Shown: one piece after another, positions 1-49,239 of the stretch
Position numbering within the stretch: position 1 is the stretch's first letter
Layout: every line of letters begins with the position of its first letter
Assembly (NCBI GenBank): GCA_035495615.1
Contig: DATJFP010000088.1
Coordinates: 41,763-105,762, forward strand
From: Verrucomicrobiia bacterium
GTDB taxonomy: Bacteria; Omnitrophota; Omnitrophia; Omnitrophales; Aquincolibacteriaceae
DNA: 64,000 nt
Reading direction: 5' to 3'
Notes under the pieces: generated by a model
The model's database searches: none
Told to the model about the DNA's origin: nothing
The model's input: only the letters and a program-made list of their open reading frames with translations
Program-made: the position numbers and the translations under genes

Positions 1-300
1 AGGCGCGCGCGGCCGCGGAGCGCGCGGTTGATGTCGGTCTGCAGCGCGATCTCCCCTTCCCCGAGGGCTCGCAGGAACTGATACGCGTAGGCCATGACGA
101 TGGGATTGTTCTCGTCGACGGCCGCGGGAATCACCAGCTGCCCGCTGCGCAGGAGCGTCGAGATGTGGCGGGCATAAGCGCGGTAGATCGGGCCCGAGTC
201 GAAAAACTGATAGCCGAATTCCCTGGCCAGAGCCCGGGCGGCTGTCGATTTACCGGCCTGCGCGGGACCCGCGATATTGATGCCTTCGGGCGTTTCCAGA
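1..300 (-). other. Cytidylate-kinase-like P-loop NTP-binding module, truncated by the window edge
   Basis: Direct translation: ETPEGINIAGPAQAGKSTAARALAREFGYQFFDSGPIYRAYARHISTLL. Compare Cmk: ItIDGPxGAGKxTxxkxlAxxLgxxxLDSGAiYRxxA. The frame is still open at coordinate 3. Confidence 0.6.
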
Positions 301-21300: not shown

Positions 21301-24300
21301 ATGAACGGTTCGAGCGCTTCGAGCGAACGGTAGATGTCCGCCTTCTGTTCCGTGGAGATGCCGCTGTCGTCCTGCGACGCCTTCAGCATGAAATTCCGCA
21401 CCGCGCCGTAATCGAGCGATTCCAATCCTTTGAGCGCGGGCATCTGCGCGAGCAGGAGGCCGTCCAGGTACTGGTTCGAGAAGGACCGCGCGAAATTCGG
21501 AATCGTGAGGACCATGGACAGGAAAGCCGTATTAAGGAAGCCGGAAACCGTGAAGGCATGGACAAACGCCTGCACCGCGATGCCGATGATCGGAATGCCC
21601 GCCGTGCTGACCGTAAGATACGAGCCGACAAAACCCAGGAGGCTCGCGCCCGCGATGCCCGCGGGAAGGGCAAAGGAAATCAGGGCGAGGCCGAGCGCGC
21701 CGATGAGGGCCATCATGGTCCTCTTCTGGATGAATGTCAGGGCCGGGAAGACGAGCGGCTTCAAAATCAATTTTTGGACGACGCGGTAAACCGTGTTGTA
21801 CCAGCGATTGCCGTACTGGAGTCCGTTCAGGACGGACACCACCGGCTTCCAGCGCAGGAACAGGTGGTAAATCCCCTTCTCGGCCAGGCCGCCTTTGCGC
21901 CAGTCCGTGAACTGGCGGTCGTAACCCGCCTTGTTGGCGGCAAGCATGGCGCCGGCCAGCGCGTGGATCGACGAAGAACGGTCCATGGCTTCGACCGCGC
22001 TGATGATCGTATAGCCGCGGATCGTGAGCCCGCCGCGGAAAAATCCGAAAATGATCGCGCGGCGGAAATAACCGTAGAAGAACTGGTCCAGGAGGTGCGG
22101 GCCGGCCATGACAAACCAGCGCGCGATGCGGTATCCCCGGTACAGGAATCTGCCCCAGAACGTCTTGGGCTGCTCATCCGGGCCTTCGTGCGGCTGCTGG
22201 TCCGCGCGTTTGTAATGCGCTTCGAATTCTTTTTCAAGCTCCGAGTAGATGAACTGCCACTTCTTCACGTCCGGATCGTTGTAATCGAAGCCCGTGGCGC
22301 GCGCCAGGTCTTTCAAGTCTTCTTCCGAGTAGCCGAATTCCGCGCGGATGCGCAAAATGATCCGTTCCCGGTCCGGATTCACGCCGAGCTTGAGCATGCC
22401 CTGGATGTCGGGCGGCTTGCGCTCGTAGCGGCGAAGGACAGCCTGGATCGCGGTTTCGAGCGCGGCCGACTGCGTCCGCAGTTCCGCGCGCGGCATCGTC
22501 TCGTTGACGCGAAGGCCGGAACGCATGCCGGTAAAGATGCCCTGCAAAAATTCGCGGCGGCCGAAATCTCCGGCCTGGGCCATTTCAAGGGCGTTCTTGC
22601 CGAACCACAGCGCCCCCATGCCCATCCCCATGCCCTTCTTTTCCATGTTGCGTTCCTGCTCGAGGGTCTGCTCGTAAATCCTTTCGTATTCGTCGCGCCA
22701 GAAGCTGAAGTAAAGGCCCTGGTAATAGCTGTTGTCCGGAAGTTCGGCCTTGAACTGGTCGTACTCGGTCTGGAATTCGGGACGGACGAAAGAGCCGTCG
22801 GGGTTTTCGACATTCACGCCCTGCAGCGCTTTGAGGCGGCGGAAGGCGCGGCGCATGAAACGTTCGCGCAGGTCGGCGATGTCGGCGCGGCGTCCGATGC
22901 GGTTGATCGCGCGCACCATCTCCAGGCCTTCGCGCAGCACTTCGCCCACGTTACGGTCCCGCTGGTCGGAGCGGTAGCCGAGCGTCAAGATCGAGTTCAC
23001 GTAAGCGCGGACGCGCGGGTTCGAGTAATACATCTCCGGCGTGATGTTTTCCGGGATGTTCGGGTCGGTCGGGAAAAGCGTCCGGTAGAAGCCGCGCGAC
23101 AATTCACGGGCCCAGTCGAACGCGTGCTTGGTCTGCAGGGTGTCGTTCTGCGGGTTACGCAGTTCGAAAAGGAGCTGGCGGGGCTGCGTCGCGTCCGCGC
23201 GGTTGAAGCGCGTCGGATTCGCGGCGCCATCCGCGGGAACACGCGCGCGGCGGCCGTAGTCGATGAAAATGTCTTTCAGCAGCGCGACGCGGCCGAGTTC
23301 GTTGCGGTGGTCGGCTCTTGCCGCGGAGATGCGCTGGTTTCTCGCGGCCCCGTCGGCGCCCGTGATGAGCCGCGCCCTTTCGATGATGGCGTTCAGAAGC
23401 GCGCTCACTTCACCTTTGGTGATCTGCGGCAATTCGTCGAAGGACGGTTCGTCCGGCAGGACCGGCTGACGCAGCCCGAGCGCGCGGTTGCGGATGTTGG
23501 CCAGCGAAGCGACCGCGTTCAGCAGCTGGTTCAAATGGTTTTTCCCGCTCGAGGGATCCGTCTTGATCCTCTCGGGGTCGGCTTCGATGTAATCGACGGC
23601 CGCCTGCAGGCGTTTGCGGAAATTCACGACGGCGTCGCGGTTGTTGGTGTCCGCGGGCGTTTCGCGGATCACGTCCGCGGCCAGGGCGAGCAGCATGCCC
23701 ATGTTGAACGGCGCCGCTTCCATCTGTTCCTTGATGAGTTCGCGCTCCTTTTTCTTGGTGGGGTCGAGGCGCGGATTGCGTTCGACGCGCAGGACGCGTT
23801 CCTCTTCGGGAACATCCGACCAGTTCGTCCATTCTTCGTCGCCGCTTGTCCGCAGGCGGTAGATGTAGCGCTGGGCCAGCTCGTCGTTCTGCAATTCGTG
23901 CGCGATGCGCAGGTCGAGCTTCATCGTGTTGTAGTCGTAGCCGAGCGCCGAGAAATCTTCTTCGATCCTGGAGACGATCGACTGGTCGCGGAAATACGGG
24001 TCGGCGATGTTCAGCCTGCGGCCGTAAAGACGCTCGAGGTCCGGGAGCATCTCGCGGATGTTGCGCAGGCGGCCGTGGAAGAAGTCTTTGAACGCCTGCG
24101 TGACGCGGCGGTCCCCGCCCTCGCCTTCGAAAACCGGGATGTTCCGCTTGTCGGCGATCTCGCGCGTGCTGATCACCCACGCCATGCGCATGTTGACCCA
24201 GTACTGAAGAACCATCTGGCTCGTCCACTGCACCAGGTCGCCGCGCAGACGGCGCGTGACGCGGCGGACCCTTTCGTTGTTGCCGCTCAGGATGTCGAGC

Positions 24301-27300
24301 AGGTCTTTTTCGAGCAGGCCCGCCTCGCCCAGGATCGGAAAATACTGCGCGCCCTGGCTTTCGACGATGGCGAGCGCGGCTTCGAACGCGCGGCGGTCGC
24401 CGGCATTGCCGCGTTCGATCATGTCGAGCAGCTGAAGGGTTCTTCCGATTTCGGCCCCAAACGGATGCGGGAGCCTGCCGACACGGACGCGCTCGCGCAG
24501 CCACGCTTCCAGCGCGTTGTACTGGTTCTGCGCCTGGACGTTGTTGGGAATGAGCTGGCCGCCGCGGTCGATCGTAAAAATGGTCTGGGCATTGCCGGTC
24601 ATGAATTGCGGCACGTACAATTCGAAGAATTCGCGGCCGAAGACGTTTTCGTACATCTGAGCGAACCCGTCGTTGCTGATGTCGTACGGCGCCGGCCGTC
24701 CGTCGCGCGGCTGCTGGTCAGGAAGCTGGGCCCGGTAGAGGTCGAAGAAGTCCGCGTTGGTCTGGCGCAGGGCCGCGTCTCTTTCCGCCAGATTGCGGAT
24801 GTTTTTAGCGCGGCTGTATTCGGGGGTCAGGAACAGCATGTCCCCGAGTTTTTTGCTCATCTGGTTGTAAAGCGGCTCCTTGGTCTGGTCCACGCGCGCG
24901 GCGACAGGCTGCGGCGGCGGATACGGCGTGGCGACCCAGCCTTCGCTGAAATTGTACAGGCGCGGCTGGTCCTGACCGAGCTGTTCGAGCAGCGTCTTGA
25001 ACTGCTGTTCGTGCGGCTGCAGCGCGGTGGCTGTTGTGGGCGGCGGTGTCGCGCGCCCGCGGAACATGTGGAAGACCTGGCGCAGGCGCGTGATCTGCGA
25101 CTGGCCGGGTTCGCGGCCTATGGCTTCCAGGCCCGTGCGGTAATTCTGCTGAAGCTGCTGGTACGTCGTGGTGGTAAGCGTTTCGCGGCCCTGCGGCCCG
25201 AGGATCGTGAGATTCTGGCCCGACGTATTCCACACGATCACGGCGCGGTTTTCCGCGAGGCTGGAGATGAACGTGTCCCGATCGATGTAAGAATAAGCCG
25301 TCCTGGCAAGGTTGCCTGCGACGTTCAAAAGAAGGTTCGGCTTGAGCTGGTCTTTCAGCTGGTCCACGGCGGCCTTGAAGCCGATGGCCGCGTCGCGGGC
25401 GATCGCTTCTTCATCCTGCGGCTGGAAAAGCGTGAGGCCCAGGATGATTTCGGGCGAAGGCCGGATGTAAGGCACGTCGTTTCTCTGGAAGAGTTCGTAC
25501 TGGTTCGAGGCAATGATCTGCAGGGCCTTGTTGCGCGTCGGCGTGTCGTACAGCGAGTCGCGGGCGCCGCCGCGCACCCGCAGGGACGCGAGGCTGGCCA
25601 GCTTATAAGTATTAAGGAAGTCCAGGTCGTGGTTCGCGTACACCATCCGGGTCATGGCCACCCTGTAAGCTTCTTCGCGCAGGAAGTCGACGAGTGATTG
25701 TTCCGACTCGATGCGCGCGGCTTCCTGGGGCGCGCGGTAGTACACCGTCGAGGAACCCAGCTGCGCGGAATTGATGAACGTGGAATAACGCGTGACGCGC
25801 GGGGCGCCGTGCACGGCCAGGCTCCGGACCTGATAAGCCCGGTAGAACGTGTCCGCTCCCGACAGATGCCACCACGGCAGGAGCGCGGCGACCGGCGTTT
25901 CGGTGACTTCGGACATGATCACGTCGCGGATCCTCTGGGCCCTTTGCCCGGCGAGGTCTCTGACGGCTTCGCTCAGGATAAAGCCCATGTAGCTGGAGCG
26001 CGAAACCTTGGAAGCGAGGTTCAGGACTTCCCACTGCTGGTCGAGCTGGCCGCGCTCGTCCTTGTCGCTTTCCAGGTCACTCAGGAAGATCCGGCGGAAA
26101 GACTGGAAATCCGTTTCGTTCAGGCGGCGGAGAACCGTCCGCAGATTGCGGCCATCGCGCCCTTTGGCGGACGCGACCATCGACTGCAGGAGCAGGATGC
26201 GTCCCACGCGCTGGTTGCGCGTGATGTCCGTGGCATTGTCGGCGGAAAGGTTCATGCGGGCGAACAGGCCTTCGAATGTTTTCTTGAGCCAGTCGTATTC
26301 GTCGAAGCTGCGCGGATCGTTCCGGTGCAGCGCGGCCACTTTGTCCTGGTTGTCCGCTTCATGCCGCAGCAGGCGTGTACGCAATTGCCGGCTCTCGAGA
26401 CGGATGCGGTTGGCCGGAGCTCCGGTCACGCCGCTCGGAATCACGCCTAAAGCGCGGAGCAGGTTCTGTTCCGGGTTGCGGCCGTCTTCGTTGCGGAAGA
26501 CCGGGAAATTACGGATGGGGTCGATCGCGGTCGGATAGACCGACTTGTCATCGTCCAGGTAAAACTCCTTCAGGAACTGGCGGACGAGGTTGAGTTCGAT
26601 AAGATCCGCGGTCTGGGTGAAAGTATCGTCGGCCTCCACGGTGAAGCTCCGGCGGTTGTTCCCCTGCGTGATCCAGTGATTGACGCGTCCCGCCTCCGGC
26701 AGCGTGGGCATGTGGCTGACCTGGCGCACGGCCGTGGCTGTCACCGGCGTTTCCGGCGAGCGGTTGGCAAGGAATTGCTCGCGTGCCGTTTCCGGCTCAC
26801 GCCTCGGTTCCGGGCGCAAAAAGCCCAGGCCCGGCGGCGGCGGAAGAAGATCAAAACGCGGCATCAAAAGTTCCGGATCGATCTCCGGCAGCATGATGTC
26901 CGGCAGCGGAGGCGGCTCGATCGGGCGCGGACGAAGGAGTTCGTCGAGCGACGGATCGAATTCCAGCGGCGGCGCATTCGGGTCGATCGGGCCCGGGCGC
27001 AGCATGATGTCCGGATCAAAATCAAGGAGATCGGGTTCCACGTCTCCCGGCTGTCCCGGCGTGGGCGTTGCGGCCTGCTGGGCCGCGCGCTTGGCGCGCT
27101 CCTTATTCCAGATGTAGCCGCCCGCGATCACGGCCGCGACGCCCACGACGGCGCCCGCGATGATGATGTTGCGGCGGTTGACTCCCCGCTGGCGCTTGGC
27201 CGCGGCTTCGTCCGCCGCCTGCCTTTCCTTGGTCGATCGGGCCATGTACTCGAGCCCGTGCCGGATGGCTTCGATCTTGTCCGCGGCTTTGGGATGGATC

Positions 27301-30300
27301 GGAATTCCCTCGTCGCGGGCCGTTTCCTCGAACTCCTTGATGCCGGCCTCGATCGCGGTCTTCGCGTCCTCGATGGCCTGCAGGTGCTCGGGATAATCTT
27401 CCTCGTCGAGTTCCATGTCTTCATCTTCGATCAAGGCCTTGTGCTCGGCCAGAAGCTTGTTGTACGGCTTCACCGCTTTTTCCATCAGGATCTGTGTAAC
27501 CTCGCGCACCCGTCCTTTTTTAACTTCCGCTTCCTTTTGCTTGGCCACGCCGATGTTGCGGTGGATCTGCTCACGCGTCGTCCTGATCTCGTCGATGCGC
27601 GCGGTCAGAGGATGGTCCGGCTGCTCGAGGCGCGGCAGCTTCGCGAAGATCGTCTGCGACTCCTCGGCAAGCTCGAAAAGGGCGATCATGTTGTTGACCG
27701 CATCGGCCGCTTCGTTCACCGCGGCCCGCTCATGATCTTCGATGGGCTCCGCGGTTCCTTCCTTGTCGCCGAGCGCCCGCGCCAGGTTGTAATAAGTCTC
27801 GTAATGTTCGTAGAGGGTCGCGCGCTGGTCGGCCGCTTCCGCCGTATCCGCGAAAAGCTGCGGCATAAAACCCTGCTCGCGCAGCGCCTGCAGGTACATG
27901 GCTTCGAGGCCGGGGACCTGGGCTTCCATGGCGCGCAGATCCCGCACTTTGATGAACCACATGGCATAGAGTTCCGAAAAGAGGAAGTTCCCGCCCAGGC
28001 GGTGCGACGAAGTCTCGGCGCGCAATTCAGGGCGGGCAATGCCGCTGACCGCGCCGGGGTCGATGCTTTTGAGCTTTCCGTCGTCGTCCAGGATGAGATT
28101 GCGCCAGACGTCATCGATATCCACGATGCGTTTGTCGTTTCTCAGTTTGACGGTCGCGGCAAGAGCGCGGTGGCGGCGCACGTCCGCCTGGAAGACGGCC
28201 TGGAAAACCGCGGTCTTCTGAGCGGGTTCGATATCCCCGCTCGCGGCGACAGCCTGGAGGATGCGGGCCATGTCCGGGCCCTTGTAATCCTGTTCCACGG
28301 TAAGCTTGCCCGGTTCCTCGGAAACCTGCCGCGTCGGAACGAAGAATTCGCCCAGCACGGCCTGGTTGGCGAGACTGAGGCGCGCCTTCGTGTCGTCGAG
28401 GCTGACGGCCTCGTATTCTTTGGTCACTTTCGTCGGATGGGCTTCGTCGTCGGCGCTCAGCTTGGCGTGGAACCCGGACTTGATGCTGACCGGCAAGGTC
28501 GCTGCCACCTGACGGAGGATGGCCACGACTTCCGCGGGAAGCGGCGCGTTGTTGCCGCGCTCTTCCTTGATGGCATTGTTCAGCGCGCCTTCGATCTTAT
28601 TGAGGACGTTTTCCGCGTGCTCGAGTTTCGGCCGGTCGCCTTTCACGAGATTGGCGTAGGCAATGACGAGTTCGCGCAGGCGCCGGGCCGAGAGGTCGCG
28701 TCCCGTGCCTTCCCAGTTTGCGCGGTTTCCATCAAACCGTTCCCGCTGAGGCACGGACAAACGCGCGAGCATGCGTGCCTGCTGGCGGAGGATGTCGTCG
28801 ATGTCGAGGAAGGCCTGCAGGAATTCGTCCAGATAGGTGCGCAGCGCGGCTTCGTCTTTGGCCGCAATGACGGCCTGAACGTTGGCCAATTTGTTCCGTT
28901 CGCTCCAGACCGCGCCCGCGGCTTCCAGGCGCGACTGCAGGACATCCGGAAAGTTCTTCTTTTCGACTTCGATCTTTTTCTTTCCCGCGAGTTCCTTGAG
29001 CTCGGCCGCCATGTCGCCCAGGATTTTTTTATTTTCCGTCTTGTCCAGGTCCGCGAGGATGCCGTCGACGTCGGCCGGCGTCGCGGCCGAGGTGATGCGG
29101 TCGGTGAATTGGCGTACCAGCGCGGTGCGGGTGTCGTCCTCCTGCCGTTTCTGGTCTTCGAGAGCGCGCTGGCGGGCCTGGGCCTGCTGCACGAGGCGCT
29201 CCTCGACTTCCGCCGGAAGCTTGGCCGCCCGGATTTCTTTGAGCACGGCGGTGATGTTGTCGAGCGTCGCGCCTTCGATTTTCTTTTCCAGGTTTTTGGT
29301 CTTACGGTGGATGTTGATTTCTTCTTCCAGTTCCTGCTGGGCGCCTGTCGAAAGCGCGCTCTTGCGGACTTCGTCCAGGATGCCGTCCAGCACCGCGAGA
29401 TTGGCCACGGTCACGGCCGCGATGCGGCCGCGGAAGGACGCGATCAGCGCGTCCTCGGCCTGCAGTGTTTCGTCAGCGGCCGCGCTCAGCCCGATGCCGG
29501 TTTCTTCGGCCACTACGCCCGGAGGAGGCGTGCTCGGACGGCTCGGCGTCGGCGGAGTGACGCCTGCCGCGCGCGCGAGGTATTCATCGACGACGCTTTC
29601 CAGCGTGGCCTGCTTTCTCCAAACCCGCACAAGACCGTCCTTAATGAATTCTTTCCAGAGATCATGGCCCAGCTTGCGGCGCATGAAGTCCATGAGGACG
29701 GGCCCGTAATGATATTCCGCGGATTCCGGCGCACCCTCTTCGATTTTTCTCTTCAATTTCGTGGCGTGGAGGCTGCGCTTCTGCTCTGACAGCGCGGGGA
29801 AGGTCACGTCCAGCACGACATTGCCGGTCGCCGTTTCCCGCTGAAGGGTTTTGAGTGCCGCATAGACGAAATCGTTGGCCAGCGCTTCCGTGGCATAAAG
29901 CTGGTCCGGAGTGCGCGGGCCGGTCAGCGTGCGGTGCATTTCGTTGAAGATCGCATGGCCGACTTCCTCGATGTGGCGGACAAAGATGTCGGTCAAGCTC
30001 AGGTTCGCGATGTTGAGCGTGATGATGGTCTTCAGCGTCCCCTCTTCGCGGACCATGCGGGCACGGGCCTTCTTGTCTCCGTCATTGCTGGAACGGATGA
30101 CGATCCGGGTGATGGGAACCCGGGTCTTGGGCCCGTAATATTCGCTGCTGAAGCGCGTCAGAAAATCGTTGAGGGTGTAGAGCTTGCCCTTGTAGGGGTA
30201 GACTTTCGCGTACTTCACGATGAAGGCAATGAAATGCGCGCGGTATTTCGCGTTCCACGACGCGTCTTCGGGATTGTGCTTCTGGATCATCTCGACGATC

Positions 30301-33300
30301 TTCGCGCGCACTTCGTCCTGCTCGGCTTCGTCTTCGATGTTTTCCTGCAAGTACCGGTCGATATCGTCCTTGACCTTGTCGGGCGTCATCTTCAACACCT
30401 GGAAAAGATGGTCGGTGAGCGTCCTCACGTTCACTTTACCCCAATTGAGGCGGACGCGCGCCACATTGGCATCCGCGTCATGAATGGCCGTATCGAGATT
30501 GCCTTCGCGCAGCAGGGTCTCGGCCACGGGCTCGCTGAGAATAAGGCCCTTCTTGACCTGTCCCGATTTTCCGTTCGCCGTCAGCCGCAGCAGCTCCACC
30601 TGCATGGGCATCAAAGCGCCGGGCTTTTCCTCCGGGGCCGCCGGCAGCGTGTCTTCGGCTTCGCCCGGTTCCGGCAGGAGTTCTTCTTCGTTTTCCGTGA
30701 CCACGGCAGGCACGGCCACCGGCATTTCGGGGGTCACCGCCGCAACGGGCGCCACTTCGCCCGCTTCGCCGACGATGTCGGCCTGGGCCCGGGCCATGCG
30801 TTCCAGGCTTTCCTGCGTTTCCGTCGGGAGCCCGCTCGCGGCAACGGCGGCAAGAACGCCCGCGGCCGTGTCCGGAGTCATGTTCGTGATCTGCTGTTTG
30901 AGGTCCGCGATCGTGCTCGACATGGCCAGGGACATGCCGCCCTCGGCCTCGGACTTGGTGATGAATTCCCTTCTGGTTTCGTAAGGCCCTTCGAGTTCGC
31001 CCAGGTGCGACACGTAATCGGCGATCTGCCGGTTCACGGCCTCGCGGTCCGCCGCCTCGTACAAGCGCCCGAACTTTCTCTCGATCGCTTTCCGGCGCGC
31101 GTCGATTTGTTCGAGATGCTGCGTCAGGTCGAAATCATCGAGCGAAGCCATGGTCTGGATCTGGTCCAGCAGCGCCTGGCGGTCGAGCGCCTCGTCCAGC
31201 TCCGCGCGGAAGCCGCGGACCGTGCGCAGCACCAGTTTCTTGAAGCTCGCGTCTTTGGCGCGGCGGGCGGCAAGCGCGGCCGCGATCGGATCCTCTTCCG
31301 GCGGCGTCATGCGCAGTTCGGAGCGGCGCTGCTGGCTCTCACGCATTTCCGCCTTGAGGCCGGTAAGCTCTTCCTGCTTGGCCACATAAAGCGCGTCCAG
31401 ATGTTTGAAGCGGTTGTTGTCGGTGGCAAAGGCATTCAACCGTCCCTGGATCTGCTGGTAATGCTCGACGGTAAAGGCCTCGCCGTAATTTTCGCGCATG
31501 GAAGCGGCCGCGGTCCGGATGGACTCGAGATGCTCGGTGAAATCGAAATCGTCGATGTGCTCCATGGACGCGATCCGCGCTTCGAGGACTTCCGTATTCA
31601 AGAGTTCGTTGTCGATGCGTTCCAGGAAATAACCGACGGCGGCAGGGACCAGCGCCGCAATCTGCCGGTCGAGATCCTTGTCGAAGTCCGGCACCTGCAC
31701 CGACATGAGCGCGTCCGGAATCGACGTGTCCGTGCCTTCTTCATTAATATAGCGTTTGGCCGTGACGAGCGCTTCCAGGCGCAGCGGCACCAGGTGGCGC
31801 TGGGCGTCCGCGCCGATCTGCGGGCCGAATTCGTCGATGACAAGATTTTGAGCGGCGACAAATTGTTTGAGGCGGGCCACGGTCACGTCTTCTCCCGCGG
31901 CAAGGGGCTGTCCATAGAACCGGGCCATGATCGCCTTGGCCGGCGTGGGCTTTTTGCCGTGCGTGGCCTGGAACTGCGTCCGCAGCTGCACCAGCCCGTC
32001 CGACAATCTGCCGCGCGCCACGTCCAGGAGGCCGTTGACGCGGTTGGCTTCGATGAGCCGGTTCATGCCCGGCCCTTCGGCGAGAACTTTCCCCGCGGGA
32101 AGAACGGTTCCCACAAGCGTTTTTTGCGACGCCGCTTCTGCGATGGCGCGTTTCACGCGGCCGGCCGCCTCGCGCAAGACGCCGAGTTCCGAGAGGATTT
32201 CCTGCTGAAGGGCGCGGTAAGCTTCGTCGAGAGGTTTATAATTTTCGCGCACCGTAACGAGGCCGCTTTCGTCCTGGGCCGCGTAGGGGTGGTCCGCTGC
32301 GAGTCCTTCGAAGAACTTTTCGAGGACCCGGTCGACTTCCGTGGGATCGTCGGTTTTCGAGGGAAGGTCGTTGAGATTCCGGATCCGGCTCTGAATGCGG
32401 GTCAGCGCGCTATGCAGGTGGCCTTTTTTATCGGGCTGCGATTTGATCCGGGCCAGATTGCCGGCAAGCAGTTCTTCCATCGCCGCTTCCTGGTCCGGAT
32501 GCGTGCGCAGGAAATCCACGATTCCCTTGTTCCCGATAATGTCGGTGAGCCGCGACAGTTCCGCCTCGACGGTGCCGTGCATGTCGCCCTGGACCTGCGC
32601 CAGCATCCCGCTCACTTCAGGCCTGAGGGTTTTCGCGGTTCCGTCCAGCGAGGCCTGCAGCGCGATCTCGTCGAGCCTGGCCGGGGTCATGTCCTGGAGC
32701 GCCTCGTTGTCCATGTGCAGCGCGGTCAATTCCGCCACCACTTTTTTCGAGATCAGAACATGATAAAGGTCGCGGATGTCGGCCGGCATGTCGTCAAAGC
32801 CCTTGCCGCTGGTCGAGGCCCGCATGGCCGCGGCCTTCAGGGCGTCGCCGGTCGTCTCTTCCAGCTTTTTCCCGGTCGCGTCGCCCTGGATGTCTTTCAG
32901 GTACTGGCGGACATTGTCCGCGATGGCATTGCGTTTTTGGGGTGCGAGGACCGTGACCACCTGGGTTTTCAAGTCCGCGGGCACGTTCTTGAGCAGGAGG
33001 AGCATGCGCTCGACCGTGACCACGGCATTTTTCTTCTCGCTGATGTTTTTCATCCAGCTCTGGACTGCGGCGGTCGTGGCCTTGAAAATCGCCGCGGCTT
33101 CATCGGCTTTGAGGGTGAGCTCCTGGCGCAGCGCGTCCGCGCTCTTGATCTTGCCTTCGGCCGTCGGATAATCGCGTCCCGGCTGGGCCTTGGCTTGATC
33201 GAGAAGCGAGAGCACTTCCTGGATTTTGGCCAGCCGGATATCCTCTTCCGTCGGGGCCGCGGCCGATGGAGGCGCCACTTTTCCGGGCGTCTGCAGTCCC

Positions 33301-36300
33301 ACGAAAGAAACGTCATCGTCGTCGGCAAAAGGATTCGCGCGTTCCAGCCTCTTTTCCAACCCGTCTCCGGGGATCGAGGAGGCGTCCCGCGCGGCCTTGG
33401 CCAGCGCGTGCACGGTCTGATCCAAAGGCAGGGTGCGCGTCATCTCAACCAGTTCTTCCATGCCCGGGATCGGCATCACGCGGCCCACGACCGAGATCGT
33501 GGCCAGCGGCTTGCCGGGTTTGTTGGCGAGTGTCGTCGTCCGTATCGTGCTCAAACCGGCAGGCGTGCTCTTGTCGCCGCCGTCGGAATAAACCAGCGCC
33601 CGCGTTCCGGGAGGCACGTCCACCTGGGTGCGGTTGTTGCTGCCCAGCAGAAGAGCATCTCCGGAAAGGAATTCGTCGTGCTTGTGGCGGACGCCCAGAT
33701 AAAGCTCCAGGTTCTCCTGCGTTGTGAAGCGCGGAAGCGTCTCGCCGAAATCTTTGGCCTCCACCTTGCCGTCCGGGAGAATGAAAATGCCGGTGCTGTC
33801 GCCGTAATCGAGACCCAAGCCCGCGTATTTTTTCTTATCCGGATCGGCAATCTGCCGTGTTTCCGGGTATTCCCAGACAAGACGGATCGTGAGGGTGGTC
33901 ATGGCCCGCGAATGAATCTGCCGGGCCCGTTTGGCCTCGGACAAAGCTTCATTGGCCGCATCGACCGCGTCCTCGAGGACTTTCAAGGCGGCCTCGGGCG
34001 TTTGCGCCGCGAGCAGCTTTTCCCGGGTGGCTTCCTTCTCGATGGCGGCGATCACGATAAGCGCGGCCTGCCGCCCGTCCGGCTGCCCTCCGGCACCGTC
34101 CGCCACCGCGATGAGGCCCCGGTCCGGCAGGTTGAGAATGGCGTCTTCGTTGTTCTGGTCCGCCAGCGGTTTATTGATGCGGTACACTGCGGGAGCCGTG
34201 TAAGCCCAGGTCGTAAAACCCGTAGCCTTGCCTTCGATAGCTCTCTTTTTCGCGTCAAAATCATCTCTTACCCAAGGCCTGATCCGCTCCGGAAGCGCTT
34301 CGATCTGGCCTTCGACCGCCGCCAACTCCCCCGCGCTTGAATTCAGCGTCAGCGCGTCGACTGCCGCCCGCACCGGCATGTAACGGCGCCGGTCTTCCTG
34401 GATGCGCTGGGTAATCTGCAGCTTCTTGGCATCGGCCGCGCGGCCGATCTCGTCTTCGAAGCGCTGATAAACGCGCGGCGTGGTTTCTTCTTTGGCGCTC
34501 TCGACGTTTTCGTCGACGATGGCGATGCTGAGGATGTTGATGTCCGCCTTCTGCAAGTCCTGGATAAATTGCCGGAGCCGCTGCTCATCCCTCTTATCCT
34601 TGGCCGCGATCTTTTCTTTCTTGGCCCGTATGGCTTCCTGGACGTCGGCACGCTGCCGCAGCCGCGCATCCGTCAAAATCTTGGCCGCTTCCCCTTCGAC
34701 ATCGGCTTCCGCGACGGTTCTGGGGTCCAGGGCTGTGATCTTGCTAATGGCTTCGAACGCCGCCTCCTCATCCGCGGCAACCCGCGTCCGGATGGCCTCG
34801 TTCTTTTCGGCGAGCCGGGCCTGTTGCAGCCGGGCCGCGGCGTCCTGCGCGCCGTTCAGCCGGTTTTCCAGCGGTGTGACGTCCGAAAACGCATTGAGTG
34901 GGGTCAGCGCATCGACTTTGGGCGTAATGTCCGCTACGATCAGGCCCACGACTTCCCCGATTTCCCGCTTCAAAGCCGCCTGCAGTTCCGTGTCTTCCTT
35001 AATCTGGTCCGCGCGGCTGAGCAGCGCTTCGGCATCCGAAACCTGCGCCGCGGCAACATTCTTGCGGAGGTCTCCCAGGAGCCTGCGTACGTCCGCCGCG
35101 ATGTCGTTGTTCGAGCGCGAACGATCCCCGATCGACTGCCGAGCGGCTTCGAATTCTTCTTTGAGCGATTCTTTGAGATCTTCCCGGTCCGCGACACGCG
35201 CTTCCTGAGCCTGCACGTCCGATTCGTTTTTGACCCGGCGGAGCTGGATCTTGATATCCGCCATCAGGTCGCGGTCGAGGCTCTCGCGCTGCGTGATGGC
35301 CTCTTCCTTGGCTTCCACCTCGCGCAAAAGACGCGCCGCCCGTTCGCCCCGGGCGCCGGTCACGCGCGCCCGCAAGCCCTGCGCGGCGGTAAGGTCGCTG
35401 CGGTCAGTGAGCTGCGCGATCTGCGGTTCGATCGCATCCATGATCTTTTCCGCGGCCGCGTCGATCTCGCCTTTCACCTTGTCTCTCAGTACGGCGCCCG
35501 CGATCTGATCCGCCTGGTCGGCAAGGTCCTGCATGGTGCGGACATAAACGCCGTCGATCGCGGCCGTTTCCGTAATTCTCAGGCGCACCGCGGCGGCGGC
35601 CGTGTCATCGGCCTGGATGCGGCGCTGGATCGCGCCGCTGATGTCATTGGCTTTTTGCGCGAGGCGGTTGGCGCGCTCGGTCTTCGCATTGACGAAACGG
35701 CGGCGCTGCGCCTCGACTTCCTCTTCGGTGCTGAGTTCGCCGAGCCGGTCGAGAGACTCGTCGATGTGAGCGGCGACAAGCACCATTTTGCGTTCGATGA
35801 GCGCCTCGAGAGGGCCGCGCATTTTCGCGTTCTTCAAGCCGGCCAGTTTTTCCGTGACGGCTTCGACGTCCTGCAGCGCGGCCGTTTCCGTGTCAAGGCC
35901 CTGAAGCGCCCCGCGCACGTCCTGGTCGATCGCGCCGTCCTGCCGGATCCGTTCCTGGATCGCGGTTCTTTTCTGCGTGGCAAGATCAAACAGCTCGGGA
36001 ACCGATTCCGCTTCCTGCATCCGCGCTTCCTGCGCGGCAACGTCCTTTTCTTCGTTCAATTCCGTGAGCGCTTCCAGTTTTCCCCGGATGTCGGCCGCTA
36101 CAAGCCCGCGCGACTGCTCGATCGCGGCAACAGTCCTGTCGCGAATGGCCACGGTCACGATTCCCTGCGCCCGGGCTTTCGCGGTCTCAAACGGCTTCAC
36201 CGTTGCCGTGGCCGGCGTTTTGGGAAGGCCGCCGAGGATTTCCCGCGCGGTTTCTTCGTCGCGGCGTCCGCGGTCGCGGATGCGCGTCTTGATGTCGGCG

Positions 36301-39300
36301 GCGAAACCTCCGATGCGCTGACGCTGCCGTTCTTCGGGCAGCCGCGCCACGGCCGCATCGACGTCCGCTTCCGTGCTCTGTTCGTTGGCGGCGAGCGCGT
36401 TCATGGCCGCCTGCGCGTCCCGGATCAGTCTCGAATCTTCTTCTTCACGTTCCCGCAGGAAATCGCGGCGCGCCAAAGCCGCTTGCCGCAATCCTTCAAC
36501 TTCGGGCGATTTGGCGTTCTTCAGCCGGTCTTCCTGGGCGCGGATGTCGTTGACGTCTTCCGCGGCGGCGATTCGTTCCCGGATGTTCTGCACCACGGCA
36601 ACGCGCTTGGCCTCGATCTGCGGCCTCGCTCCTGTTTTCAAATCCTCATAAGGTACGGCTTCTGCCCGCTCGGCATAAGATTCGATGACTCCGAGCGGCA
36701 CGCCGTCTACGCCAAAGCCCGTCACGTCGCCGACCAGCCGTTCCATTGTTCGCTGGTAGTAATCGTAAATCTGGGCTTCCATCTGAGTCCGCTTGGCCTC
36801 GAGCCGCGGGAACACGAAAAGAAGGAGCGCGTGAAGGCTGGGGGTCGATTCGGTTTGAGCCAGGAGGTTCTTTTTCGCGCGCGCGTAGGCGGTTTGTTCC
36901 GCCGCGGCTCCGGCCTCCTGGTATTCTTTCAGCGCGCGGACGAATTCGTAGGAACTCTTCTGGTCCAGGGGCGGCATTTCCGTGGAAGTCAGCATGGCCG
37001 CGGCTTCGGGCACGATCTGGTCCGGCTTGTCGAGCTGTGCCGCCATGGCCGAGATGAGCCGCGATTCGTACTCGGCGAGGGCGGCTTCAGTCGTGCTGAG
37101 GCGGGCGCCGATGCGCGATTGAAGTTCCGAGACAAGAGGCGCGGGACTGTCGGCCGTTCCGGCAAGCGCCGCGGCTTCCTGGCCCAGGCCCTGGAGGCTC
37201 TGGTAATTTTCGTGCGGATCGCCGCGGGTCTGCTCGAGACGCTGGGCAATGTCGCGGAACTTGATCGTGTTATCGACCTGCGGCGTACGAACTTCGCCGG
37301 GCAGCACTTCGAAAAAGGCAATGACCGCCAGGATGGCGTCGAAATTCGCGGCCACATCCCCCATGTGGGGCTGCAGCGCGCCTTGCAGGAGGGTTTGTCC
37401 GCGCGCGGCAATGATGCCCGGAATCTGGGGCCTGTCCGCTTCGGAGGCCGCGCCGCGCTGCGCGTACGTGTCTACCAGGATCTGCGGGCTCATGGCCTGC
37501 GCCGTCGTGGTCTGGATCAGTTGAAACGCCCGGGCCAGCTTCAGGACGTTCAGGGCGTCGTTATTTTCAGGAGAAAATTTCGTGGTGTCCCACGTGATGG
37601 CGGCCAGACGCTCGAAGGAGTCCGCGCGGTTGATTTGCTTGGCCAGCCGGCCGAAGCGGGATTTTTCCGTGCCGCGCCATTTGATCACTCCCCAAATGGC
37701 TCCGGCTCCGGCCGCGAGACCCGCTGCGATTAAAGCGGGCCCGGTAAGATTGGGCGCGTTGACCGTGACGCCTCCTGCTTGTTCCGCCAAATACTGATAA
37801 AGTTCGTAAACGCCGTAAACCGCCACGCCGGCGCCGGTGAGAACTCCCAGGCCGAGCAGAATGCGGTTTCTCCAGACGCGGGCCGTCTCTTCCCGTCTTT
37901 CCAGTTCGGTCTTTCTCGCGCGCGCGCCGTCCTGCTCCGCCGCGGGCAGATCATTGATCACAGCTTCGGTAATATCGGCCGACCGCCGGGCTGCTGCGAC
38001 GGCTGCGCGCGCATCCTCGATCTTCTTGAGAGCGTCGCGCTTTTCCCGGGCCTGGTCCCGCTCGCCGTCGTTTTCGAGATCCGCGAGCACCGCGTCGGTA
38101 ATCTGCGCCGACTGCGTGGCCGTGGCGACCGTACTTCTCGCGGCTGCAAGGCGCGCCGCCTGGATCGCCGTCCTCTTGCCTTCCGCGACTCCGGCGAGCC
38201 TCGCCGCTTCCGTCGTCTGAGCTCCTTCCAGACGCGCCGTCTGCGCGGCCACCTCTTCGATCGTGCTGGCGTCGGTCAATGCCGTCAACTTGCCTTCGAT
38301 GTCCGCCACGATTTGCGTGACTTTGCCGCGGATTTCATCTTCCACCGCCCCGCGAGCGGCCCCGTCTTTGATGCCGGCCGCCAGAGGCAGAAGAGCTTCG
38401 GCGTCGCTTATTTTCGCGGCAGCGGCATCGATCTGTCCGAGCTGTGTCCGGATATCGCGCGCTTTATCCTCGTCACCCCGCAGCCGGTCGCGAATCTGTT
38501 CCACGGCGGCATCCGCCTGGTCTTTCACCTGGATGCGGAGACGTTCCTCCAGACCGTTCACAATGGCGGCGAGCTGATCTTCCGTGGCCGTTTCCAAATC
38601 CAGGGCTCCGATCGCGCGCTTGGCCTCAGCGACCGCGCGGCCGTCCGCTTCGATTCTCGCCTCGATGGCTGCGCGTTTGGCTTCCGCCAATTCCCGCAGC
38701 CGCGCTGCTTCGGGAGTCTTGGCATCTTCGAGGCGTGCGGTCTGCGTCACCACCGATTCGGGAGTGTTGAGTTCGGTGAGGGCATTCAATTTGCTTTCGA
38801 TGTCGGCGACGATCTGCCCGACTTTGCCGTTGATCTGGCTTTCGACACTGCCGCGAAGCGTCGCGTTCTGGATCTGCGCGGCGCGCGTCAGCAGGGCTTC
38901 CGCGTTTTCGATCGTGGCGCTTTCAGGCTGAACCTGCCCGAGATCCGAAAGGATGGCGCCGGCTTTTTCGTTGTCGCTGCGGCCGCGCTCGCGGATCGCG
39001 GCAATCTTGGCATCCGCTTCGTCGCGCACATGATCACGCAGGCGGGCCGGCAGCCCGCTGCGAATGGCTTCAACGGCGTCTTCCGCCGCCGTGTTCACAT
39101 CAATGTCGTCGATCTGGCGCTTGGCTTCGACTATAGCCCGGGCATCGGCCCCGAGCCTGTCGCTGATCGCCTGTTTTTTCTGTCCCGCCAGATCGCGCAG
39201 GCGTCCGGCATCGGCAGCGGCGGCGCCTTCGAGCCGCGCAGCCTGGGCATCCGGGTCAGCCAGCGCATTCAGTTCCGTCATGGCGTTCAACTTGCCTTCG

Positions 39301-42300
39301 ATGTCCGCGACAATCGCGGTAACGCGGGCGTTGATTTCGCCCTCGATCGCGCTCCTCAAGGTTTCTCCCTTGATCTGTTTCGCCCGCGGCAACAAGGCTT
39401 CGGCGGCGTGCACGTTGGCATCGCCCGGAAGGAGGGCCGCAAGATCGCCGCGGATCGCTACTGCTTTTTCATCGTCGCTTCTCAAACGTTCGCGGATGGC
39501 CGAGAGCGCCGCCGCGACATCTTCCGCAATCTGGTCACGCACGCGTTCGGGCACGCGCGTCTCGATGGCTTGGACCTGGGCAGGCGTCGCGGTTTCGGGA
39601 TCGAGCTGGCCGAGGTCCTGTTTGGCCGCCGTGACGGCTTCGCGGTCCGCGGCGATGCGCCTCGTGATGGCGTCCATCTTGCCGCGCGCCAGATCGCGAA
39701 GGCCTGCGGCTTCCGAGGTAAGCGCGTCTTCGAGGCGCTGGACCTGCGTGTCGACTTCGGCCGCCGCGCTCAACTCGGTCAAGGCTTCCAGTTTTCCGCG
39801 GATGTTTTGGACGATCCCGCCCACTTTCGCGTTGATTTCATCCCGCACGGTTTCTCTCAGAGCGGGGTTCTTGATGTCCGCGGTCTCCGTCAAAAGGGCT
39901 TCGGCTTCTTTGACAGCGGCCGTTTCAACCGGCAGCAGTCCAAGCCGCTCACGAATGCTTTGCGCTTTTTGTCCGTCGGTTTCGATGCGCTGGCGGATCG
40001 CAAGCAGGGCCGCCTGCGCTTCGGTGCTCACCTGGCCGCGCAGACGTTCAGCAAGACCGTTCACGACGGCTTCGACATCGGTGGCCGCGGCTTCATTTAT
40101 ATTAAGGCTCGTGATCGCCTGCTTCGCCTGGCTTACGGCGAGCTCGTCCGCCCGGATCCTTCTCTCGATGGCGGCCGATTTTTCTTCCGCAAGCGTGCGC
40201 AGCCGGCCCGCTTCGGACGTGGCCGCGTCTTCCAGCCTCGGCGTAATCGCCGTCACGCTGGCGGGCTCGTTCTGGTCCGTCACGGCATTCAATTTCCCTT
40301 CGATGTCCGCAACGATCGCTTTGACTTTCTGATTGATCTCGCCTTCGACCGCGGAGCGCAGCGTTCCGTCTTTGATCTGCCCGGCGCGGGTCAGCAGCGC
40401 TTCCGCGTCTTTGATCGCCGCCGTATTGGCAATCGCTCCGAGGTCACCCCGGATGGCCGCCGCCTTTTCGGTATCGCCCTGCGTGCGTTCGCGAATCGTG
40501 GCGGCCGCGGCATCCGCTTCGGCCTTGACCTGATCACGCACCCGTTCGGGCACGCGATTGCGAAGGGCTTCTACGTCGTCCACCGCGGCCGTGTCCAGAT
40601 TGAGCGCCGCGATCGCCTGCTTGGCTTCGCGCACGGCGCGTTCGTCCGCGTCGATCCGGTTTTGAATGGCCCTGGATTTCTGCTCCGCCAACTCCCGCAG
40701 CCGGGCCGCTTCCGGCGTCACCGCGCCTTCAAGCCGCGACGTCTGGGCCGTCACTTCTTGGGCCGTGCTGAGTTCCGTCAAGGGCGTCAGCTTCGTTTCG
40801 ATGTCCGCGGCGATCTGGCCGGTCTTGGCATTGATCTCGCCTTCCACGGCCGGACGCAGCACCGCATCTTTGATCTGCGCCGCGCGGGGAAGCAGCGCTT
40901 CCGAATCCGTGAGCTTGGCCGTCGCGGCGGCGATACCCTGCAGGTCCGAACGAATCGCCGCGGCTTTTTCTCCGTCGCCCCGCGTGCGGTCGCGGATCGT
41001 GGCAATGGCCGCGTCCGCTTCGGTCTTCACCTGCTCGCGCACCCGCTGGGGCACCCCATTGCGGAGGGCTTCCACTTCGTCCACCGTGGCCGTGTCCAGA
41101 TTGAGCGCCGCGATCGCCTGCCTGGCGCCGCTCACTGCGAGCGTGTCGGATTCGCCGCGGCCGGAGATGGCCTGAGACTTTTGGCCTGCCAGCTCCCGCA
41201 GCCGGGCCGCTTCCGGCGTCACCGCGCCTTCGAGCCGCGCCGTCTGGGCCGTCACCTGGTCGGCCGTGCTTTCGTCCGTCAAGGCGTTCAACTTTCCTTC
41301 GATGTCCGCGACGATCCGCGTCACGACCGCGTTGATTTCGCCTTCCACGGTCGTCCGCGCGGTCTGGTCCTGAATCTTTGCGGCGCGCTCGAGCAGCGCT
41401 TCCGCGTCTTTGATGTTCGCGGCCGCCGGCACGATCCGTCCGAGATCCGCGGCAAGGGGCCCGCGAAGCGCCGTGTCTTCTTCGCCCCGCTTTAAGTCAT
41501 CCCGCCGCCGTTGAGCCCCTGCCAAAATCACGTCGTAGGCGCTTCTTTCATCCCCGGCGAACGTCACCCCCGTCACAAGCCGTTCCGCTTCATCAAGTTT
41601 CTGCTGCGCCTCGGCCGCTGTGTCCGCAGCCTGGGCTGCGGCAAGCAATCCGACCAGCGAAACAACATTGCCTCGGCGCGTTACCTGCTCTTGTTCGGCT
41701 CGCTTCAAGTCGCGCTGCTTTACGCGCAGGGCTTCGAGGGCTTCGGTATAACGGGCTTCTTCCTGGCCGGCAAATGTGACCTGGCTGCGCAGTGCCGTGA
41801 CGGTCGCGATCGTGGCTTCCGCCTGCGTCGACGAGGTCGGCTCCACGGCCAAAAGAGCCATCAGGTGCCGGACTTTTCCCGAACGTTCGGCTTCCGCATC
41901 TTCGTCCGTCTTGAGACGCTGCGCGGCTTCGCGTGCAAGCCCGAGCGCATCGGTGTACTGCCGCTGTTCATTCCCCTGAAATTGGACGCGGCCTGCAAGG
42001 TCTTCGGCTTCTCGGATCATTTCCTCGGCTTCGGATGCCGTTGCGGCGCGCTGCGCGCCTGTCAGCAGGCTCTGGATGCGGCGCACCGAGGCTTCGCGGT
42101 CCGCGACAAGTGCCCGATGCTCGGCGATGAGTCCGGCCAGCGCGCGCGTGCGAGTGCTTTCAGCGGCGCCTTCCAGCCTTTTTTCCTGGAGGTCGAGGAC
42201 GCCTGTGTCATAAGTGCTCGTGACCTGGGTCCGGATATTGGATTCGATGGCAAGCGCGGTTTGTTCGACTTCCCCTTCGAGCGTCGTGCGCAGGCCTTGA

Positions 42301-48530: not shown

Positions 48531-48704
48531 GAGGATTTGCCGTCCCTATGTTTTGCTGGCCAAATTGACGTGCTAACTTACCGACTACTTAAAAAATTGA
48601 TTTATATTGTTATATTTAAACTATATATCAAAGTTTTTAAACTCACAATAGTATAGACCGAAATAATTGTAAGTTAAATACTTGATAAAAGTTTTTATGA
48701 AGTA

Positions 48705-48795: not shown

Positions 48796-48796
48796 T

Positions 48797-49228: not shown

Positions 49229-49239
49229 GATTCCTCCTG

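What the first reader, a model, noticed from the sequence alone, without database searches (positions are those of the whole stretch)
33290..34190. PP2C-type phosphatase-like module embedded in the middle of the giant protein
Seen: NNEDAILNLPDRGLIAVADGAGGQPDGRQAA, then TTL, GDSTG, SDGG, and a terminal acidic DDDDVSFVGL. Established: these match the order and character of PPM/PP2C signature motifs (xNEDA, VADGMGG, GTT, GDSR, DG, DNxT). Inference: a signalling phosphatase, or a decayed copy, is fused into a structural or membrane giant. It sits directly after the repeat field.
Basis: partly seen in the sequence, partly recalled or inferred. Interest (0 to 1): 0.55.

Follow-up and report, generated by a model that had tools for sequence, protein, structure and literature searches.

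The report
Divergent PP2C phosphatase domain in giant protein
A real but strongly diverged PP2C-type phosphatase domain sits inside a bacterial (Omnitrophota) protein more than 16,000 residues long; it keeps its metal-binding residues, has lost the usual phosphate-binding arginine, and is an ordinary enzyme family in an unusual but already described kind of giant protein.

Summary
All the quoted peptides are encoded at 33290-34190, on the minus strand. They lie inside one stop-free frame (48530 down to 3) of more than 16,176 codons that runs off the window.

The module is giant residues about 4782-5085.
- It passes Pfam PP2C_2 (27.4 bits, cut-off 24), but only over its N-terminal half.
- A profile of ordinary 230-300 aa PP2C proteins aligns to it with 99% probability.

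All five metal-binding aspartates of tPphA have a counterpart. The last two rest on weak alignment. The conserved phosphate-binding arginine is an aspartate, the GDSR arginine is a threonine, and there are three insertions.

The N-terminal 700 residues ("head") of the protein place it in Omnitrophota, a phylum known for giant multi-domain membrane proteins. I found no orthologue of the module or of its surroundings in any collection searched. It lies in a lineage-specific stretch directly after a field of ~165-residue helical repeats.

Most likely it is a metal-binding, slow or specialised phospho-Ser/Thr phosphatase. A non-catalytic remnant is the main rival. Verdict: new member of a known kind, modest interest.

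The parts
3..48530 (-). Giant ORF (>16,176 codons from the ATG at 48530); the 3' part runs off the window start
   Evidence: Stop-free frame 48545..3; translation; AT-rich upstream spacer and ATG; N-terminal homologues align from residue 1
33291..34202 (-). PP2C/PPM-like module, giant residues ~4782-5085 (numbering from the codon at 48545)
34143..34160 (-). Motif 1, D-Q-N-N-E-D (residues 4796-4801). D4801 is metal aspartate 1. D4796 occupies the position of the conserved phosphate-binding Arg (tPphA R13 / PstP R20)
   Evidence: HMMER alignment to PstP and PppA; mapping to tPphA and column counts, 28 of 31 relatives have R
34086..34106 (-). Motif 2, V-A-D-G-A-G-G (residues 4814-4820). D4816 and G4817 are metal ligands. 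The next residue, Q4821, replaces the His39 of tPphA
   Evidence: Invariant columns D37, G38 and G40 of A1; mapping
33792..33803 (-). G-D-S-T (residues 4915-4918). D4916 corresponds to tPphA D119 (third-metal ligand). T4918 replaces the Arg of GDSR
   Evidence: Invariant G136 and D137; R in 31 of 31 relatives
33576..33587 (-). S-D-G-G (residues 4987-4990). D4988 corresponds to tPphA D193
   Evidence: Weak independent hhalign hit to the PGxxxLxxSDG motif at the correct profile position: local score 23.5 against shuffles 12.9 +/- 2.4, with 1 of 100 shuffles reaching it; MAFFT mapping
33294..33323 (-). D-D-D-D-V-S-F-V-G-L (residues 5075-5084). D5077 corresponds to tPphA D231, D5078 replaces the Asn of DNxT, and this is the last beta strand
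   Evidence: Global alignments only; modelled strand 301-306 with block pLDDT ~80
33486..33575 (-). ~30-residue insertion after SDGG (residues ~4991-5020), absent from ordinary PP2Cs. Two further insertions lie at ~4898-4910 and ~5057-5074
   Evidence: Alignment A1; low pLDDT, modelled as a beta hairpin
34203..36692 (-). Second field of ~165-residue helical repeats (residues 3952-4781), ending directly at the module
   Evidence: Iterated HMM of one repeat unit against the giant protein
37944..43478 (-). First field of the same repeats (residues ~1690-3534)
37683..37862 (-). Hydrophobic hairpin TM2/TM3 (residues 3562-3621), the membrane anchor N-terminal of the module-bearing segment
   Evidence: Kyte-Doolittle scan and flanking K/R counts
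27111..27167 (-). TM4 (residues 7127-7145), the membrane anchor C-terminal of the module-bearing segment
46446..48530 (-). Conserved N-terminal 'head' (residues 6-700) including the signal/anchor helix at 17-35; it assigns the protein to Omnitrophota
   Evidence: 43 homologues, those with a source name labelled Candidatus Omnitrophica/Omnitrophota; at least 548 loci in GTDB genomes

Best explanation
The stretch encodes a genuine but strongly diverged PPM/PP2C-fold domain of the bacterial 'group I' type (relatives of tPphA, PstP, Stp1 and PppA). It is built into a giant, membrane-anchored Omnitrophota protein. It follows a long field of helical repeats and lies between two membrane anchors (TM3 at 3603-3621 and TM4 at 7127-7145). 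Because the five-aspartate pocket and the ADG glycine are kept, the domain most likely still binds Mn2+/Mg2+. It would then hydrolyse phospho-Ser/Thr on a specific protein partner, or on the giant protein itself, as a built-in regulatory switch. Because the motif-1 arginine is an aspartate, the reaction should be slow and dependent on contacts with the substrate's peptide part rather than with the phosphate alone. Shown here: homology, motif content, fold compatibility, position in the protein and taxon. Inferred: metal binding, catalytic activity, the substrate, and which side of the membrane it faces (I lean to cytoplasmic).

For: Active site: all five metal aspartates and the glycine are conserved.

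Activity with Asp at the arginine position: the tPphA R13D variant lost pNPP hydrolysis but still dephosphorylated phosphopeptides slowly (PMC3375153).

Coding and context: codon-position GC in the module resembles that of its neighbours, so it is an integral, translated part of the gene. Giant Omnitrophota proteins that carry many embedded enzyme and signalling domains are documented (10.1101/2023.11.21.568195; 10.64898/2026.06.07.730766).

Topology: K/R counts are +5 before TM2 and +6 after TM3, with none in the 22-residue loop between them. This favours a cytoplasmic location for the segment that holds the module.
Against: Only the N-terminal half plus the GDS strand is significantly similar (module residues 12-150). 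The C-terminal half alone scores weakly (1 of 100 shuffles reaches it in local mode, 4 of 100 in global mode). The assignment of D4988, and especially of D5077, therefore rests on motif order and on a model.

The structure model is not independent evidence. The single-sequence model failed (pLDDT 35), and the good model was driven by an alignment of PP2Cs.

The Arg-to-Asp change at the phosphate-binding position is not among the natural replacements listed in PMC3375153 (Lys, His, Met, Ala), and 28 of 31 relatives have Arg. The GDSR Arg (31 of 31 relatives) is Thr. The 'DH' motif is 'GE'. His39 is Gln.

I found no orthologue, so conservation under selection cannot be shown. No Ser/Thr kinase, FHA or STAS partner domain was detected in the visible 16,181 residues or in the neighbouring genes.

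Counting membrane helices from the N-terminal signal-like helix would instead place the module outside the cytoplasm.
Confidence: 0.55

Rival explanations
1. Pseudo-phosphatase. The domain is derived from PP2C but no longer catalytic. It would serve as a structural, metal-binding or phospho-protein-binding module within the helical part of the giant protein.
Against: All five metal aspartates and the ADG glycine are retained, which is not expected after long neutral decay of a dead site. R13D tPphA keeps some phosphopeptide activity.
Confidence: 0.27
2. Truncated remnant. Only the N-terminal ~150 residues derive from a PP2C. The rest is unrelated sequence, and the later 'motifs' (SDGG, DDDD) are coincidences.
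For: The Pfam, NCBIfam, phmmer and local hhalign matches all stop near module residue 100-150. The global score of the C-terminal half is reached by 4 of 100 shuffles. pLDDT is below 50 for residues 153-185 and 211-246.
Against: The one local hit of the C-terminal half falls exactly on the PGxxxLxxSDG motif at the collinear profile position (187-204), with a z-score of about 4.5 against shuffles. The acidic D-D-V-S-F-V strand lies where DNxTxV is expected. In the model the blocks 190-210, 250-280 and 300-310 have pLDDT 70-81, and 209 of 235 tPphA residues superpose.
Confidence: 0.1
3. A PP2C-fold hydrolase acting on something other than phospho-Ser/Thr, for example removing AMP or phosphocholine from proteins as the Legionella effectors SidD and Lem3 do, or acting on a small phospho-ester. 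It might be exposed outside the cell and aimed at a prey or host cell.
Confidence: 0.06
4. Chance resemblance, or not a translated feature at all.
For: None beyond the short length of several motifs (TTL, SDGG).
Against: HMM, profile and fold statistics; a 48.5-kb stop-free frame with strong codon-position GC periodicity; the N-terminal 700 residues of the same ORF are conserved in hundreds of Omnitrophota genomes.
Confidence: 0.02

Closest known systems
Bacterial group I PPM/PP2C Ser/Thr phosphatases: tPphA (2J82/5ITI), PstP (1TXO), Stp1 (2PK0, 5F1M), PppA (6JKV), MspP (2JFR)
   Different: This is not a stand-alone ~240-residue protein but an internal module of a protein of more than 16,000 residues. 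The motif-1 Arg is Asp, the GDSR Arg is Thr, His39 is Gln and DNxT is DDxS. There are three insertions (about 10, 30 and 18 residues). Only about 20-25% identity, and a C-terminal half that is barely recognisable by sequence.
tPphA R13D variant (Su and Forchhammer 2012, PMC3375153)
   Same: It carries an Asp at the position of the conserved arginine, which is what the module has naturally.
   Different: It is an engineered single change in an otherwise optimal enzyme: no pNPP hydrolysis and strongly reduced phosphopeptide activity. The module has many further changes that could compensate or aggravate.
Giant multi-domain membrane proteins of Omnitrophota ('Archaeovorins' and related long proteins; West-Roberts et al. 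2023 preprint; 2026 complete-genome preprint)
   Same: Omnitrophota origin; length above 10,000 residues; N-terminal signal/anchor and many hydrophobic helices; enzyme-like domains scattered in long unannotated sequence; domains very divergent from their families.
   Different: A PP2C domain is not mentioned in the main text of either paper. No paper in the searched library mentions both Omnitrophota and PP2C. The visible 16,181 residues are almost free of Pfam hits, with none of the common domains: no SecA_DEAD, HEAT, glycosyltransferase or HATPase_c. The rest of the ORF is outside the window.
PP2C-fold non-canonical members: TAB1 (pseudo-phosphatase), SidD (deAMPylase), Lem3 (phosphocholine hydrolase), and SpoIIE/RsbU/RsbX (group II)
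   Different: All rank below the group I phosphatases. Pfam SpoIIE gave no hit. Unlike a decayed pseudo-phosphatase site, the aspartate set here is complete.

Membership tests
PPM/PP2C phosphatase superfamily | Significant match to a curated family model | tested here: met
   PF13672 PP2C_2: 27.4 bits against a gathering cut-off of 24, E 3e-6, profile positions 9-100 of 209 only; 24.2 bits in a 1000-residue tile. PF00481 and PF07228 were not reported at E <= 10.
PPM/PP2C phosphatase superfamily | Five conserved metal-coordinating aspartates (tPphA D18, D34, D119, D193, D231; PMC3375153) and the ADG glycine | tested here: met
   D4801, D4816, G4817, D4916, D4988 and D5077. The first three Asp and the Gly lie in the significant alignment. 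The last two rest on a weak local hit and on global alignment.
PPM/PP2C phosphatase superfamily | Conserved motif-1 arginine that binds the substrate phosphate (PP2Calpha R33, tPphA R13, PstP R20) | tested here: not met
   The aligned residue is D4796. 28 of 31 relatives have R, and the other three have K, S and N. The arginine is 'highly conserved' but 'not universally conserved' in the family (PMC3375153), so this lowers the expected activity rather than excluding membership.
PPM/PP2C phosphatase superfamily | GDSR motif with its arginine | tested here: not met
   The module has GDST (T4918); R is present in 31 of 31 relatives. G and D of the motif are conserved.
PPM/PP2C phosphatase superfamily | Alpha-beta-beta-alpha sandwich fold | tested here: inconclusive
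PPM/PP2C phosphatase superfamily | Mn2+/Mg2+-dependent phospho-Ser/Thr hydrolysis | not testable with these tools
   This needs a biochemical assay.
Stp1/IreP-type PP2C (NCBIfam NF033484 equivalog) | Score above the equivalog cut-off (230 bits) | tested here: not met
   34.7 bits, profile positions 9-99 of 232. It is related to, but not an equivalog of, Stp1.
Omnitrophota giant proteins (West-Roberts et al. 2023) | Encoded by Omnitrophota | tested here: met
   Head homologues that carry a source name are labelled Candidatus Omnitrophica/Omnitrophota (one Candidatus Theseobacter exili). Of 80 GTDB loci, most are titled Omnitrophota/Omnitrophica; the rest are 'uncultured bacterium' or 'uncultured Planctomycetia bacterium'. 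A syntenic locus is L002.
Omnitrophota giant proteins (West-Roberts et al. 2023) | Extreme length with numerous transmembrane helices | tested here: met
   More than 16,176 residues, cut by the window. 36 windows passed the hydropathy threshold, merging into about 25-30 helices, mostly at residues 8946-9015 and 11359-12755. This is a hydropathy scan only; no dedicated topology predictor was available.
Omnitrophota giant proteins (West-Roberts et al. 2023) | Divergent SecA DEAD helicase domain (present in most full-length examples) | tested here: inconclusive
   No SecA_DEAD hit in the visible 16,181 residues. The C-terminal remainder of the ORF lies outside the window.

The most novel reading that the evidence does not exclude
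The module is a PP2C-fold enzyme with a naturally inverted charge at the phosphate-binding position. It would be displayed outside the cytoplasm on the giant surface protein of a predatory or epibiotic Omnitrophota cell, where it acts on prey-cell phosphoproteins or on a non-phosphoprotein substrate. That would make it an extracellular effector use of the PPM fold carried by a giant protein.
Probability: 0.06. Interest if true: 0.7.

Novelty: new member of a known kind. Interest (0 to 1): 0.3.

Why it matters
In the first ~14,000 visible residues of this giant protein, the PP2C module is the only stretch that any curated family model recognises. That makes it one of the few experimental handles on an otherwise opaque protein. 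The domain can be expressed alone, assayed, and used to probe topology and partners.

It is also a natural example of the Arg-to-Asp change, so far studied here only as an engineered mutation in tPphA. It could show how PPM enzymes work, or stop working, without the phosphate-binding arginine.

Neither point changes current understanding. PP2C domains are ubiquitous, and Omnitrophota giants are already known to carry many embedded enzyme and signalling domains.

Tried and rejected
- **+ strand reading:** the region reads as an Arg/Gly-rich antisense shadow ORF; rejected.
- **Single-sequence AlphaFold2 of the module:** pLDDT 35, unusable.
- **Orthologues of the module:**
  - word-indexed search of 5.8e9 clusters: 3 generic PP2Cs only;
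  - exhaustive phmmer of 1.84e9 representatives: nothing below 1e-10;
  - back-translated pattern scans of GTDB genomes and JGI metagenomes: nothing;
  - the 1200 residues downstream of the module: no homologue at all.
- **Closest head relative:** the syntenic locus L002 shares only residues 6-696. P0057 (100% identical) could not be located on a contig.
- **81 head-bearing Omnitrophota loci (1.23 Mb):** no PP2C profile hit within 10 kb of the head.
- **Pfam on 5000-residue chunks:** the first chunk, which holds the N-terminal half of the module, reported no PP2C hit, and the second gave only 18.2 bits. I put this down to query length, but the second chunk also starts inside motif 1. I repeated the scan in 1000-residue tiles.
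- **Names of the nearest PP2C relatives:** uninformative; one hit is a clam repeat protein, which I judge to be chance.
- **A visual impression of a degenerate GGDEF domain at residues ~14440-14640 ('RGPDESW'):** no Pfam or PDB support; dropped.
- **PDB profile search with the head alignment:** nothing.
- **Supplementary files of the two Omnitrophota papers:** none held for one, and no PP2C term in the other.


Full report
**1. What is in the sequence**

The region 33290-34190 reads as nonsense on the + strand. The long + strand ORF that covers it (29934..34340) is an Arg/Gly/Phe-rich antisense shadow.

On the minus strand one frame is free of stop codons from 48545 down to 3. That is 16,181 codons, and the frame runs off the window. 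The first ATG is at 48530. It follows a 270-bp AT-rich spacer and encodes a signal/anchor-like N-terminus, MIDWQTRRAKPWLRTVALLVALIFIV.

Residues are numbered from the codon at 48545; the start Met is residue 6. On this numbering the module spans about 4782-5085. Codon-position GC in the module (0.67/0.45/0.77) fits this frame and resembles the surrounding parts of the gene.

**2. Is it a PP2C domain?**

*Family models and sequence searches*
- Pfam PP2C_2 (PF13672) matches with E 3e-6 and 27.4 bits against a cut-off of 24. Only profile positions 9-100 of 209 are covered. PP2C (PF00481) and SpoIIE (PF07228) were not reported even at E <= 10.
- NCBIfam Stp1_PP2C gives E 1.2e-8 but only 34.7 bits against an equivalog cut-off of 230.
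- A sequence search of the PDB finds PppA and PstP, with the NED and ADGxGG motifs aligned.
- An exhaustive phmmer run over 1.84 billion representatives gives 53 hits at E <= 1e-3 and none below 1e-10. Nearly all match only the first ~100 residues of the module. The 30 hits of 230-300 aa that I aligned are ordinary stand-alone PP2Cs.
- A profile built from 31 such proteins plus the module hits tPphA at 8e-78, so they are bona fide PP2Cs.

*Profile alignment*
- The module aligns to a profile of those 31 proteins with 99.5% probability in global mode, over template columns 1-264 of 277.
- In local mode the probability is 99.1% (E 1.6e-18), over module residues 12-150.
- The C-terminal half alone is weak. 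Its single local hit falls on the PGxxxLxxSDG motif at the collinear profile position. The score is 23.5 against 12.9 +/- 2.4 for 100 shuffles, and one shuffle reaches it. In global mode 4 of 100 shuffles reach the real score.

*Structure prediction*
- AlphaFold2 without an alignment failed (pLDDT 35).
- With the PP2C alignment it gave pLDDT 70.6 and pTM 0.74. Confidence is low in the flap region (153-185) and in a ~30-residue insertion (211-246).
- That model matches PstP and tPphA by Foldseek (E 1e-12, TM 0.75).
- The model depends on the alignment, so it is supporting evidence, not independent evidence.

**3. Active-site residues**

I mapped the module onto tPphA, whose sequence was printed. 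The five conserved aspartates are those described in PMC3375153.

| tPphA residue | Module residue | Note |
|---|---|---|
| D18 | D4801 | metal Asp, in the significant alignment |
| D34 | D4816 | metal Asp, in the significant alignment |
| G35 | G4817 | ADG glycine |
| D119 | D4916 | metal Asp, in the significant alignment |
| D193 | D4988 | metal Asp, weak alignment |
| D231 | D5077 | metal Asp, global alignment only |
| R13 | D4796 | changed; 28 of 31 relatives have R |
| G10 | P4793 | changed |
| R121 (GDSR) | T4918 | changed; 31 of 31 relatives have R |
| H39 | Q4821 | changed |
| N232 | D5078 | changed |

The 'DH' motif of the relatives is 'GE' in the module. There are three insertions of roughly 10, 30 and 18 residues.

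The R13 position is informative. In tPphA the R13D variant lost all pNPP hydrolysis but still dephosphorylated phosphopeptides at strongly reduced rates. The authors expect natural homologues without this arginine to have diminished activity (PMC3375153). Asp is not among the natural replacements they list (Lys, His, Met, Ala).

**4. Context**

*Taxon.* The N-terminal 700 residues (the 'head') have 43 homologues. Those that carry a source name are labelled Candidatus Omnitrophica/Omnitrophota, apart from one Candidatus Theseobacter exili. One is 100% identical and one is 63% identical. The 63% relative lies in a syntenic locus with the order SPOR, PilZ, YajQ, cNMP-patatin, AMP-binding, hydrolase, histidine kinase, response regulator, then the head.

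*Head family.* A profile of the head finds at least 548 loci in GTDB species genomes. In 61 of the 81 fetched loci, the head-bearing ORF runs stop-free to the end of the fetched DNA (in most of these about 3,900 residues or more).

*Variable interior.* Only three parts of this protein recur in those loci:
- the head;
- residues 8695-9362, which follow the head almost directly in L022 and L027;
- residues ~11700-12770 in L065.

None of these loci has a PP2C profile hit. The 1200 residues after the module have no homologue in 5.8 billion clusters. Residues ~700-8690, including the module, are therefore a lineage-specific variable region.

*Repeats.* Within that region, ~165-residue helical repeats occupy 1690-3534 and 3952-4781. 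The last copy ends right at the start of the module.

*Membrane anchors and topology.* Hydropathy peaks place the module between a TM2/TM3 hairpin (3562-3621) and TM4 (7127-7145). Which side it faces is unresolved. Counting from the N-in signal-like helix puts the module outside. The K/R distribution at TM2/TM3 (+5, 0, +6) puts it inside.

*Other domains.* Pfam in 1000-residue tiles finds only three things in the visible protein:
- PP2C_2;
- a near-threshold ARMT1-like match (23.5 bits against 25);
- the first 38 positions of cytidylate kinase at the window edge.

No Ser/Thr kinase, FHA or STAS domain is seen in the protein or in the neighbouring genes.

**5. Comparison with what is known**

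Giant Omnitrophota proteins with many transmembrane helices and scattered, very divergent enzyme and signalling domains have been described (10.1101/2023.11.21.568195; 10.64898/2026.06.07.730766). PP2C is not mentioned in either main text, nor in the top-20 domain list of the first paper. No paper in the library combines Omnitrophota and PP2C.

The module is therefore a new, very divergent member of the PPM family, in a known kind of host protein.

**6. Verdict**

- Homology to PP2C: about 0.9 or higher.
- A complete PP2C fold: about 0.8.
- Retained, probably slow or substrate-specialised, metal-dependent phosphatase activity: about 0.5.
- The main rival is a non-catalytic pseudo-phosphatase (0.27). 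A truncated remnant (0.10) and a non-canonical substrate or extracellular effector role (0.06) follow.
- Interest is modest (0.3). The value lies in giving an experimental handle on a dark-matter giant protein, and in a natural Arg-to-Asp variant of the PPM active site.

Noticed in passing
window 3-48530, minus strand: One stop-free ORF of more than 16,176 codons fills three quarters of the window and continues beyond its start. All the long + strand 'ORFs' over it (e.g. 165..5825, 29934..34340) are antisense shadows.
   Followed up: yes
window 46446-48530 (-), giant residues 6-700; loci L002-L082: The N-terminal 'head' is a conserved domain with no Pfam or PDB match. Its invariant residues include D92, H94, E122, G123 and G493-G494-F495-H496 (HIQDAHANEEAQ... 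and TGGFHT). It is found in at least 548 loci of GTDB Omnitrophota genomes, usually at the start of ORFs that run for 3,900 residues or more.
   Followed up: partly
window 1-48000 against 48001-64000: The giant gene is compositionally distinct from its neighbours: GC 59-67% against 52-55%, and GC3 73-86% (rising along the gene) against 60-74% in the flanking genes.
   Followed up: partly
window 3-428 (-), giant residues ~16089-16126: The N-terminal P-loop part of a cytidylate kinase (PF02224, E 6e-10, profile positions 1-38 of 211) lies inside the giant ORF right at the window edge. The rest would be outside the window.
   Followed up: partly
window 5430-5762 (-), giant residues ~14262-14372: A near-threshold match to the ARMT1-like damage-control phosphatase domain (PF01937, E 3.7e-5, 23.5 bits against a cut-off of 25). 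This could be a second phosphatase-type module in the same protein.
   Followed up: partly
window 20460-22463 (-), giant residues 8695-9362; L022 12920-14890; L027 2505-4217: This block, which includes a membrane-helix cluster, is 32-41% identical to sequence lying just after the head in two relatives. This suggests that about 8,000 residues (repeats plus PP2C) were inserted or expanded between head and block in this lineage.
   Followed up: partly
window 34203-36692 and 37944-43478 (-): About 19 copies of a ~165-residue helical repeat (Ala/Glu/Arg-rich) with no Pfam match, split into two fields by the TM2/TM3 hairpin. Two further degenerate copies lie at residues 5812-5923 and 6399-6529.
   Followed up: partly
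window 48797-57014 (-); L002 2062-9685: The upstream gene order is conserved with the 63%-identical relative: cNMP-binding patatin, AMP-binding enzyme, alpha/beta hydrolase, histidine kinase (here a receiver-PAS-HisKA-HATPase hybrid) and a 143-residue response regulator directly before the giant gene. In L002 the frame of the long gene breaks after 691 residues.
   Followed up: partly
window ~6300-6550 (-), giant residues ~14000-14080: A low-complexity Gly/Ala/Gln/Tyr-rich linker (AAATPGYGAATSEP...GGYGAPQAATGGGQQ) lies between two unannotated parts of the protein.
   Followed up: no
window 4566-5288 (-), giant residues 14420-14660: By eye this stretch resembles a degenerate GGDEF domain ('RRGPDESWLLI', 'FTISVGAAF'). 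Neither Pfam (E <= 1) nor a PDB sequence search supports that.
   Followed up: yes
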